Below are positions 27,595-32,438 of a DNA stretch of 46,373 nt, piece by piece. Position 1 is the stretch's first letter. Each line of letters opens with the position of its first letter. The notes under the pieces were generated by a model. The model ran no database searches and was not told where the DNA came from. It worked only from the letters and a program-made list of their open reading frames with translations. Both the position numbers and the translations under genes were made by a program. The DNA comes from an uncultured Nitrososphaerota archaeon (GTDB lineage Archaea > Korarchaeota > Korarchaeia > Korarchaeales > Korarchaeaceae), in assembly GCA_964618805.1 (NCBI GenBank), contig CAZUBM010000017.1, positions 1 through 46,373 on the forward strand, written 5' to 3'.

Positions 27595-28356
27595 TTACAA
27601 TTCTTTAACGGAATAATAGAGCTTGAATCCTTGATCTGTTTTCTCTACCTTCTTTAATTCGATTGGACCAACCTCACCAGTATTTGTCACATGAGTTCCC
27701 ATGCATGGAATCGCATTTATTCCTTCTATGACTACGAGCCTATATTTTTCAGCCCGAGGCAATCTATCAAGGTTCGGGGCCTCTTTAGCAAATTTCAAAA
27801 GCTCATTTTGTGCAACATATACAAATCTAACAGCTCTTCTTTCCTCAACTATCTTGTTTGCCTTTTTTGAGATGATCTTAATTTGTTCTGAGTTAGGAGG
27901 ATCAGCCTTATACTCAGTAAACGCCTCAGGTGGTCCATGGTTAGCCCCCAAGGTATCTACAACCCTACCATAAACGTCTCTAAGGGCATAATCGAGAATA
28001 TGTCCCGCTGTGTGCAATCTCATAATTAGATGTCGCCTTTGCCAGTCCAAAGAACAATTAACTACCTCACCAGCGCGTGGCAATCTACCATCTAACTTTC
28101 CGAAGTGTACAAGAACCCCTCTAGCTTCCAATACCTTCTTCAATCTTACAGCAAATCCTTCACCTCTTATGAAACCTAGATCCGTTGGTTGTCCTCCTCC
28201 TTTTGGATGGTATATGCTCCTATCAAGTATAATGTAGATGTTTTTCTTCTCCTGCTTTGAGGCTAATACTTTAGCCTTCGCTTCCCTAAGGTATGGATCC
28301 TCCAGATACAGCTTTTTAGTAGGAGAAAAGTCAATAACAAGTTTATTGATATCCAA
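27595..28356 (-). CDS. alaX: Alanyl-tRNA editing protein AlaX (paralog 1)
   Basis: LYLEDPY, HPKGGGQP.D.G, MRLHTAGH and PCMGTH Zn motifs. Confidence 0.92.
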   Translation of the reverse strand: MDINKLVIDFSPTKKLYLEDPYLREAKAKVLASKQEKKNIYIILDRSIYHPKGGGQPTDLGFIRGEGFAVRLKKVLEARGVLVHFGKLDGRLPRAGEVVNCSLDWQRRHLIMRLHTAGHILDYALRDVYGRVVDTLGANHGPPEAFTEYKADPPNSEQIKIISKKANKIVEERRAVRFVYVAQNELLKFAKEAPNLDRLPRAEKYRLVVIEGINAIPCMGTHVTNTGEVGPIELKKVEKTDQGFKLYYSVKEL

Positions 28357-28434
28357 CTCTTTAATGAGCTGATAATTAAAATCATAAAAGGATTTTGGAT
28401 GTTTCCTCTTTTTAACTGATCAGCGGGTAAAATA

Positions 28435-29367
28435 GTGACGTTGTCCCTCAAAGATTTCAGGGATAAGAGAGGCTTCTCAAGACCTCCCGAATCACTTGAA
28501 TCAGAGCTAAATAATTCAAATAGAAGAGATCTAATCTACGTGATTCAGGAGCACCATGCAAGGAGGCTTCACTATGATCTCAGACTTGAAATGGGAGGAG
28601 TTCTGAAAAGCTGGGCGATCCCAAAGGAGCCTCCTACCAGGCCAGGGATAAGGAGACTAGCTATACAGACAGAGGATCACCCTCTTGAATATGCATACTT
28701 CGAAGGATGCTTAGAGTTTCACACCTTGCTTCTTACGAACAAGGGATTGTTAAGAATAGGAGAGATTGTAGAAAGAAGGTTAAAAGTGAATGTTCTCTCA
28801 TATAACATAGAGAAGAAAAGGCTGGAGTGGAAACCAGTAATAGGGTGGTACAAGAACGGTATAACAAGCAATTTCATAGAGCTATCGATTTCAAGCAATT
28901 TTTTATTTGAAAAGCTTATTTTGACCCCTAATCATATTATTTATACTCCTTTCGGAAAGAGAAAAGCTGGAGAGCTTGAGAAGGGAGATGCTGTGCTTAC
29001 AGCATGCTCAGCCGAGGATTGGAAACAGCAGAAGATCTCACTAGGAAAAGTTGAATCAGTTAGGAGGATAGATCTAGGTAATTCTCAAAGATATGACATC
29101 AGAGTTAAACAAAACCATAATTACTTCGCTAAATCAATTCTAGTGTCTAATTCAATTCCCGAAGGGTTGTATGGGGCTGGATTGGTGAAGATATGGGATA
29201 GAGGGACGTACAAACCCATAGAGGTTGGCGAAGATAAGCTAATATTTGAGATAAATGGAACAAAACTCCGAGGAAAATACGCACTTATCAGAGCAAGATT
29301 GAAAGGAAGAGAAAATTACTGGCTTTTCTTCAAAATGAAGGAAGATCCTCTCAATGGATCCTTCTGA
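28435..29367 (+). CDS. Stand-alone LigD-type DNA 3'-phosphoesterase (PE) precursor containing an intein
   Basis: VIQEH.ARRLHYDLRLE..GVLKSWA.PK, RLA..TEDHPLEYA.FEG [insert] SIPEGLYGAG.V.IWD.G.Y and L.G.YAL motifs; the spliced product would be 162 aa. Confidence 0.93.
   Translation: MTLSLKDFRDKRGFSRPPESLESELNNSNRRDLIYVIQEHHARRLHYDLRLEMGGVLKSWAIPKEPPTRPGIRRLAIQTEDHPLEYAYFEGCLEFHTLLLTNKGLLRIGEIVERRLKVNVLSYNIEKKRLEWKPVIGWYKNGITSNFIELSISSNFLFEKLILTPNHIIYTPFGKRKAGELEKGDAVLTACSAEDWKQQKISLGKVESVRRIDLGNSQRYDIRVKQNHNYFAKSILVSNSIPEGLYGAGLVKIWDRGTYKPIEVGEDKLIFEINGTKLRGKYALIRARLKGRENYWLFFKMKEDPLNGSF
28708..29151 (+). mobile_element. 148-aa mini-intein (Hint only, no homing endonuclease)
   Basis: Starts with Cys (CLEFHT), block B LTPNH, block F RYDIRV..NHNYF, ends ILVSN followed by +1 Ser. 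Removing it restores the FEG-SIPEG.YGAG PE motif. Confidence 0.93.
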
Positions 29368-29547
29368 AGATTATATCTCAGACATTGATGAACATGCTAT
29401 GGAAAATATTGCTCGTGCAAACTGGAGGCATGTCTTTCTGCGAAAAATGAAGAATAGTTATCACACCTAAACGCATCTCCAGAATCAGAACTTCTTTTTG
29501 GATTAGACTATTTGCATAAGGTTCCTGCCCTTTCAAACAGGTTTTGG

Positions 29548-31703: not shown

Positions 31704-32438
31704 TCATGGAATTACGGTAAACCTTATTCTAGTTATTCCAGCCCCTTTACTCTTCCTTCCAAGCAACTTTACCTGTCCTATTTCTCCAGTTTTGGAGACA
31801 TGAGTCCCTCCACATGGATCAGCTCTTATGCCTTCTATCTCGACCAACCTTAACTCCTTTAAACTCAAATATTCTTTACCAAGGCTCAAACCATATCCTT
31901 TCATTATTCTTTCTGCTTCTTCTTTATCTACAAACCTTGCTAATACAGGAACATCCATTTTAACAAGAGAATTTATCTCTTCTTCTATTTTTGGTAGATC
32001 ATCAGATGAAATTCGGGCCTTAAAATCGAGTCTGGCATGATCAACGTTTATACCACTACCCCACACAATAGCAGTGCCTATTACCTTTTCTACGGCTGTT
32101 TCTAAGAGATGAGCGGCAGTGTGCAATCTCATGAGCCTGTATCTCCTATCCCAGTCTATAATACCTTTTACAACGCTGCCAGGTGATATTTTACCTTCCA
32201 TGCTTCCTAAATGAATAATATCTCCTCTCTCTTCCTTAACCCACGAGACTTTGAACCTAAATTTTCTTGCTTCTATAACTCCGGTGTCAGCTGGCTGTCC
32301 TCCTCCCTCAGGATAAAACGCAGTCTTATCTAGGACCAGCCCAAGAGCATCTGGGAATTCCAAGAGATCCACAACAACAGCCTCAAACTCTCTCATATAT
32401 TGGTCTTCATAGTAAAGGCGCCTTGTCATTTCATGCAT
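31704..32438 (-). CDS. alaX: Alanyl-tRNA editing protein AlaX-M (paralog 2)
   Basis: LYYEDQY, FYPEGGGQP.D.G, MRLHTAAH and PCGGTH motifs. Confidence 0.93.
   Translation of the reverse strand: MHEMTRRLYYEDQYMREFEAVVVDLLEFPDALGLVLDKTAFYPEGGGQPADTGVIEARKFRFKVSWVKEERGDIIHLGSMEGKISPGSVVKGIIDWDRRYRLMRLHTAAHLLETAVEKVIGTAIVWGSGINVDHARLDFKARISSDDLPKIEEEINSLVKMDVPVLARFVDKEEAERIMKGYGLSLGKEYLSLKELRLVEIEGIRADPCGGTHVSKTGEIGQVKLLGRKSKGAGITRIRFTVIP

What the first reader, a model, noticed from the sequence alone, without database searches (positions are those of the whole stretch)
28435..29367. Mini-intein inserted beside the active site of a stand-alone LigD 3'-phosphoesterase
Seen: a 148-aa in-frame insert (28708-29151) with Cys1, a TPNH block B, a block F Asp, terminal Ser-Asn and +1 Ser. 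It splits the conserved FEG/(T,S)IPEG.YGAG motif six residues after Tyr86 of HPLEY. The exteins keep the PE residue pattern H40, H46, D48, R50, H82, Y86 and an N-terminal KRxF..PE peptide. Known: inteins concentrate in replication/recombination proteins, and stand-alone archaeal PEs are end-healing enzymes. I do not recall PE being a catalogued intein host. Inference: this is a new insertion site, and end-healing activity would depend on splicing, possibly conditional splicing as described for the P. horikoshii RadA intein.
Basis: partly seen in the sequence, partly recalled or inferred. Interest (0 to 1): 0.85.

Follow-up and report, generated by a model that had tools for sequence, protein, structure and literature searches.

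The report
Mini-intein splitting an archaeal DNA-end-healing enzyme
The only DNA 3'-end-healing phosphoesterase gene of this hot-vent archaeon is interrupted, next to its active site, by a small self-splicing protein element that looks fully functional; the insertion site seems undescribed in papers but recurs in many public archaeal sequences.

Summary
ORF 28435-29367 (+) encodes a 310-aa stand-alone LigD-type 3'-phosphoesterase (PE) carrying a 148-aa insert (aa 92-239, nt 28708-29151). The insert is a canonical class-1 mini-intein: Cys1, TPNH, block-F Asp and HNYF, terminal Asn, +1 Ser. HMMs, PDB sequence matches and an AlphaFold model (TM 0.88-0.92 to solved mini-inteins, about 0.9 to archaeal PEs) agree.

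It is not a one-off. 30 protein clusters share the site FEG|SIPEG: 9 mini-inteins and 21 with a LAGLIDADG endonuclease. Source labels name Korarchaeota, Bathyarchaeota, Asgard, Nitrososphaeria and Nanoarchaeia. Two further sites lie nearby: DHPx|SY in 5 clusters and YG|SG in 1.

In the window's phylum (43 genomes) the intein is in 5 of 5 genomes of its own genus. The 14 other PE-bearing genomes lack it.

This genome has one PE gene and no Ku or LigD polymerase, so PE activity should depend on splicing. The intein is under purifying selection.

Seven literature searches found no description of a PE intein. Supplements and InBase could not be seen.

Nothing supports conditional splicing; the second Cys is not conserved.

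Verdict: a real new intein allele or host, that is, a new member of a known kind, of moderate interest.

The parts
28435..29367 (+). Precursor gene: stand-alone LigD-type 3'-phosphoesterase (PE) interrupted by a mini-intein. 310 aa plus stop. The likely real start is TTG at 28441 (308 aa, MSL...).
   Evidence: N-termini of homologues
28435..28707 (+). N-extein, aa 1-91. It holds a disordered N-peptide (aa 1-33: K11 R12 G13 F14 .. P18 E19) and barrel strands 1-4, and ends in F89-E90-G91.
   Evidence: alignments to 3p43, 2lj6 and 3p4h; model (pLDDT below 50 in aa 1-29, strands at 33-82)
28552..28584 (+). Metal site and phosphate-binding Arg: H40, H46, D48, R50 (equivalent to CkoPE His9, His15, Asp17, Arg19).
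   Evidence: alignment; PMC3082917 passages; invariant in 52 of 52 aligned sequences
28678..28692 (+). H82-P-L-E-Y86: phosphate-binding His and water-binding Tyr (equivalent to CkoPE His51, Tyr55). Intein site c of other PEs lies between L84 and E85.
   Evidence: site c
28708..29151 (+). Class-1 mini-intein, 148 aa (aa 92-239), with no endonuclease domain.
28708..28746 (+). Intein block A: C92-LEFHTLLLTNKG. Cys1 is the first nucleophile.
   Evidence: C92 nearly invariant
28924..28935 (+). Intein block B: T164-P-N-H167.
   Evidence: T164, N166 and H167 nearly invariant
29089..29130 (+). Intein block F: R219-Y-D221-IRVKQ-N227-H-N-Y-F-A232.
   Evidence: Y220, D221, N227, N229 and Y230 nearly invariant
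29140..29154 (+). Intein block G and the C-terminal splice junction: L236-V-S238-N239 | S240. Asn cyclises and Ser+1 is the second nucleophile. The penultimate residue is Ser.
   Evidence: LVSN|S in 30 of 30 intein-bearing clusters
29152..29364 (+). C-extein, aa 240-310. S240-IPEGLYGAG is the flexible loop at the edge of the active-site groove, followed by barrel strands 5-8.
   Evidence: PMC3082917 (CkoPE loop 65-68; Gly68 carbonyl bonded to His9)

Best explanation
The gene encodes the precursor of this archaeon's only LigD-type 3'-phosphoesterase. A 148-aa class-1 mini-intein sits in the loop between barrel strands 4 and 5, between Gly91 and Ser240. That is five residues after the catalytic Tyr86 and four residues before the flexible loop that borders the DNA-binding groove.

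Inferred mechanism, from canonical class-1 intein chemistry (not shown here):
1. Cys92 makes a thioester with Gly91.
2. The hydroxyl of Ser240 attacks the thioester and forms a branched ester.
3. Asn239 cyclises and releases the intein.
4. An O-to-N shift leaves a normal 162-aa PE with the loop FEG-SIPEGLYGAG, the same junction sequence that Pseudomonas PE has naturally.

The mature enzyme would then be a Mn-dependent 3'-ribonucleoside-resecting and 3'-phosphate-removing end-healing enzyme. It would act without Ku or a LigD polymerase.

Evolution. The element is the endonuclease-less descendant of a LAGLIDADG_2-bearing intein allele ('PE-a') that occupies the same site in several archaeal phyla. 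In the window's lineage it is fixed in the genus and inherited vertically. It is kept splicing-competent by selection on the host gene.
For: Shown here:
- Intein and PE HMM matches lie above the curated cut-offs.
- PDB sequence matches: archaeal and bacterial PEs at E 1.7e-39 to 1.8e-31, broken exactly at aa 91/240; mini-inteins at E 8e-11 (Spl DnaX) and 3.6e-9 (NrdJ-1).
- AlphaFold model on a 52-sequence alignment: pLDDT 87, pTM 0.70. Its intein part matches solved mini-inteins at target TM 0.88-0.92 and rmsd 1.5-1.8 A. Its extein part matches 3p43 and 3p4h at target TM 0.90 and 0.89 across the insert.
- All splicing residues are present, and LVSN|S is identical in 30 of 30 intein-bearing clusters.
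- 29 of those 30 clusters share the site FEG|SIPEG. Nine inteins are mini (145-155 aa) and 20 carry an endonuclease (347-349 aa). P0126 adds one more endonuclease-bearing cluster at site a.
- Intein-free homologues are contiguous across the site.
- The +1 residue is Ser in every site-a allele. In 78 intein-free loci the same position is V 29, T 17, I 12, E 9, S 4, other 7.
- Purifying selection on the intein: pN 0.20-0.27 against pS 0.59-0.76, dN/dS about 0.1-0.2. The extein gives 0.02-0.06 (3 of 4 genus loci used, dS near saturation).
- PE is single-copy, and no Ku or LigD-Pol was found in the 93.7%-complete genome.
- The intein is in 5 of 5 genomes of the genus. The 14 other PE-positive genomes of the 43-genome phylum gave two adjacent extein matches. 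I translated 7 of those 14 and all 7 are contiguous.
- The seven closest mini-inteins form one clade (support 94/94) on a long stem.

From papers: the six PE residues were shown essential in CkoPE and MbaPE (PMC3082917 passages).
Against: - No protein-level data exist: splicing, its rate and the products are inferred.
- The penultimate residue is Ser, not the His that usually assists Asn cyclisation. By recall, inteins without it do splice, but that was not checked here.
- Gly13 replaces the Asp that PaePE needs for 3'-phosphomonoesterase activity. The mature enzyme may therefore be mainly a phosphodiesterase.
- dS is saturated, so the dN/dS values are rough.
- In the tree the mini-intein rows fill under half of the kept columns, and the clade support is not starred.
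- The direction of change (endonuclease loss rather than gain) is inferred from how inteins generally evolve, not from a rooted test.
- The genome is 93.7% complete, so a second PE, Ku or Pol cannot be strictly excluded.
Confidence: 0.85

Rival explanations
1. Conditional protein splicing. The intein stays in the precursor until a signal such as heat, redox state, metal or ssDNA triggers splicing, so that end-healing activity is switched on after translation.
For: - The insertion is at the edge of the DNA-binding groove and this is the sole PE copy, so unspliced protein is plausibly inactive.
- The runs that hold this DNA are labelled hydrothermal vent metagenomes.
- By recall, several inteins of hyperthermophiles splice only at high temperature in vitro.
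Against: - There is no conserved second cysteine for a disulfide trap: Cys191 is absent from 8 of 8 other mini-intein alleles.
- There is no specific likeness to the P. horikoshii RadA intein (E 0.037).
- The same site holds ordinary endonuclease-bearing homing inteins in other phyla, so selfish homing into a conserved motif explains the position without any regulation.
- Intein-free PEs are the rule in sister genera.
Confidence: 0.1
2. A decayed, non-splicing intein. The insert can no longer excise, and the gene is either a dead PE or a PE that tolerates a permanent 148-aa domain in a surface loop.
For: - The penultimate residue is Ser instead of His.
- The mini-intein clade sits on a long stem, suggesting fast evolution after endonuclease loss.
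- The N-peptide motif is eroding in some genus members: Gly13 in the window, divergent in P0005 and P0006.
- The AlphaFold model folds the PE barrel around the insert.
Against: - Every catalytic position is kept in all 9 mini-intein and 20 endonuclease-bearing site-a alleles (Cys1, the C-terminal Asn and Ser+1), with block-B T..H seen in 27 of those 29.
- The penultimate Ser is also found in the endonuclease-bearing, presumably mobile, alleles, so it is ancestral and not a sign of decay.
- Intein pN is far below pS.
- The exteins are under strong constraint (dN/dS 0.02-0.06), so the gene is not a pseudogene.
Confidence: 0.04
3. Not an intein but another HINT-family module (a bacterial-intein-like or pretoxin-HINT domain), or an assembly chimera.
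For: - There is a weak PT-HINT match (E 0.0018, 19 bits, below the cut-off of 27.7).
- BIL domain structures appear lower in the fold search, at ranks 30, 32 and 37.
Against: - The Intein_splicing and TIGR intein N- and C-terminal models pass their cut-offs.
- The insert is in frame, lies within a conserved motif of a housekeeping-type enzyme, and has a +1 nucleophile. Those are features of inteins, not of BILs.
- The same architecture occurs in 4 other genomes of the genus and in about 30 independent clusters.
- A 1912-base contig of run X1 covers 28200-29465 with 2 differing letters. That run may be the source of this DNA, so it is not independent.
Confidence: 0.01

Closest known systems
Natural and engineered class-1 mini-inteins with solved structures (NrdJ-1 8ubs, Mtu RecA splicing domain 2in0/3ifj, Spl DnaX 7cfv, Npu DnaB 4o1r)
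   Same: HINT fold: model-to-target TM 0.87-0.92, rmsd 1.5-2.6 A over about 151-155 columns. Sequence E 8e-11 to 1.4e-7. Shared Cys1, block-B T..H, block-F Asp and C-terminal Asn. Size about 140-150 aa with no endonuclease.
   Different: The host protein and insertion site (PE, FEG|S). The penultimate residue is Ser rather than His. The +1 residue is Ser. Identity is only 23-30%. Its nearest non-PE relatives (30-40% identity) lie in phage-type portal proteins and RNA ligases with LAGLIDADG_2 endonucleases.
Stand-alone archaeal LigD 3'-phosphoesterases CkoPE (3p4h) and MbaPE (3p43)
   Same: Eight-stranded barrel, and the six residues His, His, Asp, Arg, His, Tyr at aligned positions. Stand-alone gene. 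An N-peptide like that of MbaPE. By inference, the same phylum as CkoPE: sister genera encode CkoPE-like minimised PEs.
   Different: It is interrupted by an intein. It carries an N-peptide that CkoPE and the 7 translated PEs of other genera in the phylum lack, but with Gly in place of the monoesterase Asp.
Endonuclease-bearing 'PE-a' inteins in Bathyarchaeota BA2, Promethearchaeota, Nitrososphaerales and Nanoarchaeia MAG proteins (P0008-P0029, P0126)
   Same: Identical insertion site and junctions (G|C ... LVSN|SIP). Identity of 41-51% over the first 95 intein residues and 47-64% over the last 30.
   Different: They hold a roughly 200-aa LAGLIDADG_2 (PF03161) domain between blocks B and F. 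The window's intein has about 30 unrelated linker residues there.
Hosts with several neighbouring intein sites, e.g. haloarchaeal MCM-a to MCM-d (PMC10643990; only the search listing and abstract were seen)
   Same: PE has three sites within 15 residues: c DHPx|SY, a FEG|S, b YG|SG.
   Different: No PE with two inteins at once was seen among the clusters examined. Interference between sites was not tested.
Pyrococcus horikoshii RadA intein (conditional, temperature- and ssDNA-responsive splicing; properties recalled, not read here)
   Same: An intein in a DNA-repair protein of a thermophilic archaeon, close to the active site.
   Different: Only marginal sequence similarity (E 0.037; fold-search rank 49). 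There is no evidence of conditionality here.

Membership tests
Class-1 intein | Cys or Ser nucleophile at intein position 1, directly after the N-extein | tested here: met
   Cys92 follows Gly91. It is present in 30 of 30 intein-bearing clusters.
Class-1 intein | Block B T-x-x-H | tested here: met
   T164-P-N-H167. A T.NH motif was found in 28 of the 30 clusters.
Class-1 intein | Block F with conserved Asp and aromatic/His motif | tested here: met
   Y220-D221 and N227-H-N-Y-F-A232. These positions are nearly invariant.
Class-1 intein | C-terminal Asn followed by a Cys, Ser or Thr +1 extein residue | tested here: met
   N239 | S240. LVSN|S occurs in 30 of 30 clusters. Ser is rare at this position in intein-free PEs (4 of 78).
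Class-1 intein | Penultimate His in block G (common, not universal) | tested here: not met
   Ser238. The same Ser is present in all 30 clusters, including the endonuclease-bearing ones.
Class-1 intein | HINT fold | tested here: met
   The model (pLDDT 87) matches solved mini-inteins at target TM 0.88-0.92.
Class-1 intein | In-frame insertion in a conserved host motif, with intein-free homologues contiguous across the site | tested here: met
   (78 of 80 loci contiguous; 2 did not fit my motif pattern).
Class-1 intein | Autocatalytic excision and extein ligation | not testable with these tools
   Needs protein expression or proteomics.
Homing (endonuclease-bearing) intein | LAGLIDADG or other homing endonuclease domain | tested here: not met
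   No endonuclease family matched the window protein, and the intein is only 148 aa. Relatives at the same site carry PF03161.
LigD 3'-phosphoesterase (PF13298 / TIGR02777) | Family HMM above the curated cut-off | tested here: met
   PF13298 at 121.9 bits against 31.1; TIGR02777 at 162.6 bits against 144.
LigD 3'-phosphoesterase (PF13298 / TIGR02777) | Six active-site residues (two His and Asp for Mn; Arg and His for phosphate; Tyr) | tested here: met
   H40, H46, D48, R50, H82 and Y86 align with CkoPE residues 9, 15, 17, 19, 51 and 55. They are invariant in 52 of 52 sequences.
LigD 3'-phosphoesterase (PF13298 / TIGR02777) | Eight-stranded beta barrel | tested here: met
   The extein part of the model matches 3p43 and 3p4h at target TM 0.90 and 0.89.
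LigD 3'-phosphoesterase (PF13298 / TIGR02777) | N-peptide Arg, Asp and Glu needed for the 3'-phosphomonoesterase step (PaePE R14, D15, E21) | tested here: not met
   R12 and E19 are present, but Gly13 replaces the Asp (alignment to 2lj6; PMC3300020 passages). This is a subtype feature and does not define the family, since CkoPE lacks the whole peptide.
LigD 3'-phosphoesterase (PF13298 / TIGR02777) | Mn-dependent 3'-ribonucleoside resection and 3'-phosphatase activity | not testable with these tools
   Needs an enzyme assay.
Conditional (redox-trap) inteins | A conserved cysteine placed to form a disulfide with Cys1 | tested here: not met
   The only other Cys is Cys191, which is absent from 8 of 8 other mini-intein alleles.
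Complete archaeal/bacterial Ku-LigD NHEJ system | Ku, a LigD-type polymerase and a ligase in the same genome | tested here: not met
   There was no Ku (PF02735) and no LigD_Prim-Pol (PF21686) match. Two ATP-dependent ligase genes are present. The genome is 93.7% complete.

The most novel reading that the evidence does not exclude
The PE active-site segment is an unrecognised intein hot spot. Three independent insertion sites (DHPx|SY, FEG|S, YG|SG) lie within 15 residues around the catalytic His and Tyr and the DNA-clamping loop. LAGLIDADG homing spread these inteins across at least five archaeal lineages.

In the window's korarchaeal genus the fixed, endonuclease-less copy may have been co-opted. 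Splicing might respond to heat or to DNA ends, gating the cell's only 3'-end-healing enzyme.
Probability: 0.1. Interest if true: 0.6.

Novelty: new member of a known kind. Interest (0 to 1): 0.38.

Why it matters
- It adds the LigD-type 3'-phosphoesterase to the list of intein hosts, with three insertion sites clustered at the active site. That fits the rule that inteins home into the most conserved, function-critical motifs of DNA-metabolism proteins.
- A homing element can persist only in a gene the cell cannot afford to lose. A fixed intein in the single PE of Ku-less archaea is therefore indirect evidence that stand-alone archaeal PEs do something important. The structural papers left their pathway open (PMC3082917 discussion).
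- Practically, it offers a small natural thermophile mini-intein with a Gly(-1)/Ser(+1) junction. The mini, endonuclease-bearing and empty alleles make a ready set for homing and splicing studies.
- It does not reveal a new mechanism.

Tried and rejected
- Global search for intein-bearing PEs among named genomes did not help. The 80 loci kept were intein-free at site a in 78 cases, and 2 did not fit my motif pattern. It gave no named hosts of the intein.
- Viral contigs: 18 PE loci, 0 with an intein. There is thus no sign that viruses carry this allele, although the intein's nearest non-PE relatives sit in portal proteins and RNA ligases (9 of the 150 listed hits were scanned).
- Multi-domain LigD proteins: among the 120 best longer proteins, only P0270 carries an intein, and it is a stand-alone PE with site c. 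No Lig- or Pol-fused PE listed carries one. Only 8000 candidates were scored, so this is weak evidence.
- Sequencing runs: no RNA holder was listed. Contigs of X1, which may be the source sample, cover the whole gene and show no joint across the intein. X4 gave nothing. In X5 one 157-base contig of a roughly 90%-similar relative runs from the N-extein straight into an intein-free VIPEGEYGAG junction, while another X5 contig matches intein bases 28871-29021 exactly. This is observational only.
- Composition: the intein has 36.5% GC, the exteins 45.8% and 40.8%, and the window 41.4%. The stretch is too short to argue for recent transfer.
- A remnant of the endonuclease in the roughly 30-residue linker (aa about 183-215) was considered. 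The alignment shows nothing convincing, so the idea was dropped.
- Class 2 and class 3 inteins were rejected because Cys1 is present. The class definitions are recalled, not checked here.
- Gene neighbours are unrelated to DNA repair: a ZnuA/ABC-3 metal transporter, an AlaX-like editing protein, an MscS-like channel, AIM24 and a prenyltransferase. No operon logic emerged.
Either could already list a PE intein.
By chain length (152 against 118 residues) and the paper, 3p43 is MbaPE and 3p4h is CkoPE.
Full report
**1. The observation**

One search lists ORF 28435..29367 (+), 310 aa. Pfam splits LigD_N (PF13298, E 1.6e-35) into two stretches around an Intein_splicing match (PF14890, aa 100-239, 37.6 bits against a cut-off of 35.8). 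NCBIfam gives the LigD PE domain model TIGR02777 at 162.6 bits (cut-off 144), plus the intein N-terminal (aa 92-171) and C-terminal (aa 220-240) models.

Against PDB sequences, the protein aligns to archaeal and bacterial PEs at E 1.7e-39 to 1.8e-31 in two pieces, aa 5-91 and aa 240-301. These pieces are adjacent in the solved chains. The middle aligns to mini-inteins: Spl DnaX at 8e-11, NrdJ-1 at 3.6e-9 and Mtu RecA at about 1e-7.

All the named residues are there: Cys92, T164-PNH167, D221 in RYDIRV, NHNYFA, S238-N239 and S240.

**2. The host enzyme**

- H40, H46, D48, R50, H82 and Y86 align with CkoPE His9, His15, Asp17, Arg19, His51 and Tyr55 (chain 3p4h with an offset of one).
- In the passages of PMC3082917 that I read, these residues bind Mn and phosphate. 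Their alanine mutants lose activity in both CkoPE and MbaPE.
- All six are invariant in 52 of 52 aligned PEs.
- The window protein has an N-peptide like MbaPE and PaePE. However, Gly13 sits where PaePE has Asp15, one of the residues specific to the 3'-phosphomonoesterase step (alignment to 2lj6; PMC3300020 passages). Close relatives keep the Asp.

**3. Where the intein sits**

- In PaePE numbering the insertion lies between Gly93 and Ser94. This is in the loop between strand 4 (76-84) and strand 5 (105-115), four residues before the disordered segment 98-101.
- In CkoPE numbering it lies between Gly60 and Arg61, four residues before the flexible loop 65-68. The authors propose that this loop closes over the DNA. 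The carbonyl of its Gly68 is hydrogen-bonded to the metal ligand His9.
- A 148-aa domain at that spot plausibly blocks the groove. That is an inference.

**4. Structure**

An AlphaFold model built on a 52-sequence alignment has pLDDT 87 and pTM 0.70. Only the N-peptide is disordered.

Foldseek against the PDB gives two kinds of match:
- The intein part matches NrdJ-1, Mtu RecA and Npu DnaB mini-inteins at target TM 0.88-0.92 and rmsd 1.5-1.8 A.
- The extein part matches 3p43 and 3p4h at target TM 0.90 and 0.89, aligned across the insert.

**5. Relatives**

A search of 5.8 billion proteins listed 120 best hits. The first 30 all carry an intein.
- 29 are at the same site, ...FEG|C...LVSN|SIPEG. 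Nine of these inteins are mini (145-155 aa) and 20 are 347-349 aa with a LAGLIDADG_2 domain.
- One (P0030) is at a second site...IPEGQYG|C...LVSN|SGTVKIWD.

Names given by the sources include Korarchaeota, Thermoproteota, Odinarchaeia, Bathyarchaeota BA2, Promethearchaeota, Nitrososphaerales and Nanoarchaeia.

The search among longer proteins found one more intein-bearing PE, P0270. Its intein lies at a third site...EDHPV|C...LVGN|SYINFEG, between the catalytic His and Tyr. Four further clusters share that site (5 of 5 examined).

So PE has three intein sites within 15 residues. None of the multi-domain LigD proteins listed carries an intein label.

**6. Distribution near the window**

- The window's phylum holds 43 species genomes, and 19 have a PE.
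- All 5 genomes of the window's genus have the intein-bearing form. One of them is cut by a contig end.
- The 14 others gave two adjacent extein matches. I translated 7 of these and all 7 are contiguous, minimised, CkoPE-like PEs of 120-150 codons, with V, T, Y, V, R, T or E at the +1 position.
- The likeness of those PEs to the CkoPE chain, and the source names of P0002 and P0007, suggest that the phylum is Korarchaeota. This is an inference.
- In 78 intein-free PEs from named genomes the +1-equivalent residue is V 29, T 17, I 12, E 9, S 4, other 7. It is Ser in every intein-bearing allele.

**7. Is the intein alive?**

- Within the genus, intein pN is 0.20-0.27 against pS 0.59-0.76. dN/dS is about 0.1-0.2, against 0.02-0.06 for the exteins. 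Three of four loci were used because L013 failed my anchor pattern, and dS is near saturation.
- The splice-junction residues (Cys1, the LVSN|S junction) are kept in all 30 clusters. A block-B T.NH motif was found in 28 of the 30, and block F is nearly invariant in the 12-sequence alignment.
- The penultimate Ser is shared with the endonuclease-bearing alleles, so it is not a mark of decay.
- The genome (93.7% complete) has a single PE, no Ku, no LigD polymerase and two ATP-dependent ligases. Loss of splicing would therefore mean loss of PE.

**8. Origin**

- In a maximum-likelihood tree of the 30 inteins, the seven closest mini-inteins form one clade (94/94) on a long stem.
- The endonuclease-bearing inteins have short branches despite coming from different phyla.
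- The two other mini-inteins (P0017, P0018) are unplaced. The tool warned of long branches and gappy rows.
- I read this as homing spread of the full-length element, followed by at least one loss of the endonuclease. The direction is inferred.
- An intein-only search of 1.84 billion representatives gave 1313 hits at E <= 0.001.
- Of the nine best-scoring hits that I scanned, three are phage-type portal proteins and two are RNA ligases, all five with LAGLIDADG_2. One is a PE, and three showed no host family.
- Other inteins of the same genome lie in MCM (two), a HerA-like helicase, a TIP49-like ATPase and a tyrosine recombinase. Most carry LAGLIDADG_3 endonucleases (none was matched in the HerA-like locus or in one MCM locus), and they are not close relatives of this intein.

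**9. Mechanism and function**

The best-supported reading is ordinary class-1 protein splicing that yields a 162-aa PE with the loop FEG-SIPEGLYGAG. The enzyme would then act as a Mn-dependent 3'-end-healing enzyme outside a Ku/LigD system. The chemistry is established knowledge of inteins, and none of it is shown here.

The regulatory idea has no specific support:
- There is no conserved second Cys.
- Likeness to the RadA intein is only marginal.
- The site is explained by homing.

**10. Novelty**

- Seven full-text searches found no paper that describes an intein in a LigD-type PE.
- The two PE structure papers and the 2015 intein survey do not mention one in the passages searched.
- The survey's supplementary host tables and InBase could not be seen.
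- The alleles are already in public sequence sets with automatic domain labels.
- I therefore rate it a new member of a known kind: a real, tidy new intein host with three sites, of moderate interest to intein and archaeal-repair specialists, with no new mechanism.

Noticed in passing
P0270, P0390-P0393 (site c) and P0030 (site b); the equivalent window positions are between L84|E85 (nt 28686/28687) and between G247|A248 (nt 29175/29176): There are two further intein insertion sites in PE besides the window's. One is DHPx|SY, between the catalytic His and Tyr (5 clusters, inteins of about 434 aa with LAGLIDADG_2). The other is YG|SG, at the end of the flexible active-site loop (1 cluster, 361-aa intein).
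   Followed up: partly
G000:C4 about 44.7-46.8 kb (L007:736-2841:+): A 702-aa tyrosine recombinase (Phage_integrase with SAM-like N domains) in the same genome is interrupted by a LAGLIDADG_3 intein. This host looks unusual for an intein.
   Followed up: no
G000 contigs C8, C11, C4, C38 (L001-L010): The genome is rich in inteins: 16 Intein_splicing matches in about 9 open frames, counting the PE gene. Hosts include MCM with two inteins, a HerA-like DUF87 helicase and a TIP49-like ATPase. Three loci showed no host family in the part fetched.
   Followed up: partly
window 28471-28473 (Gly13): Gly replaces the Asp of the KRDF N-peptide motif, equivalent to PaePE Asp15, which is specific to the 3'-phosphomonoesterase step. 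P0002-P0004 keep the Asp, while P0005 and P0006 are also divergent. The N-peptide may be under relaxed selection in this genus.
   Followed up: partly
window 28435-28443: The gene call starts at GTG 28435 (MTLSL...). Homologues start MSL..., which fits TTG at 28441.
   Followed up: partly
window 27595-28356 (-) and 31704-32438 (-): Two paralogous AlaX-like genes (the end of tRNA-synt_2c plus tRNA_SAD) lie 3.3 kb apart and flank the PE gene region.
   Followed up: no
run X5, contig laid at window 28657-28706: A vent-metagenome contig from a roughly 90%-similar relative continues from the N-extein directly into VIPEGEYGAG, an intein-free allele. Another contig of the same run matches the window's intein exactly at 28871-29021.
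   Followed up: no
L016-L022 (other genera of the phylum): All 7 translated PEs of other genera in the phylum are minimised (120-150 codons between stops) and lack the N-peptide. The intein-bearing genus keeps an N-peptide. The two PE subtypes thus differ in more than the intein.
   Followed up: no
L103-L120 (IMG/VR contigs): PE homologues occur on 18 viral contigs. Some lie inside very long open frames (about 1480 aa in L111-L113, 829 aa in L103). None carries an intein.
   Followed up: no
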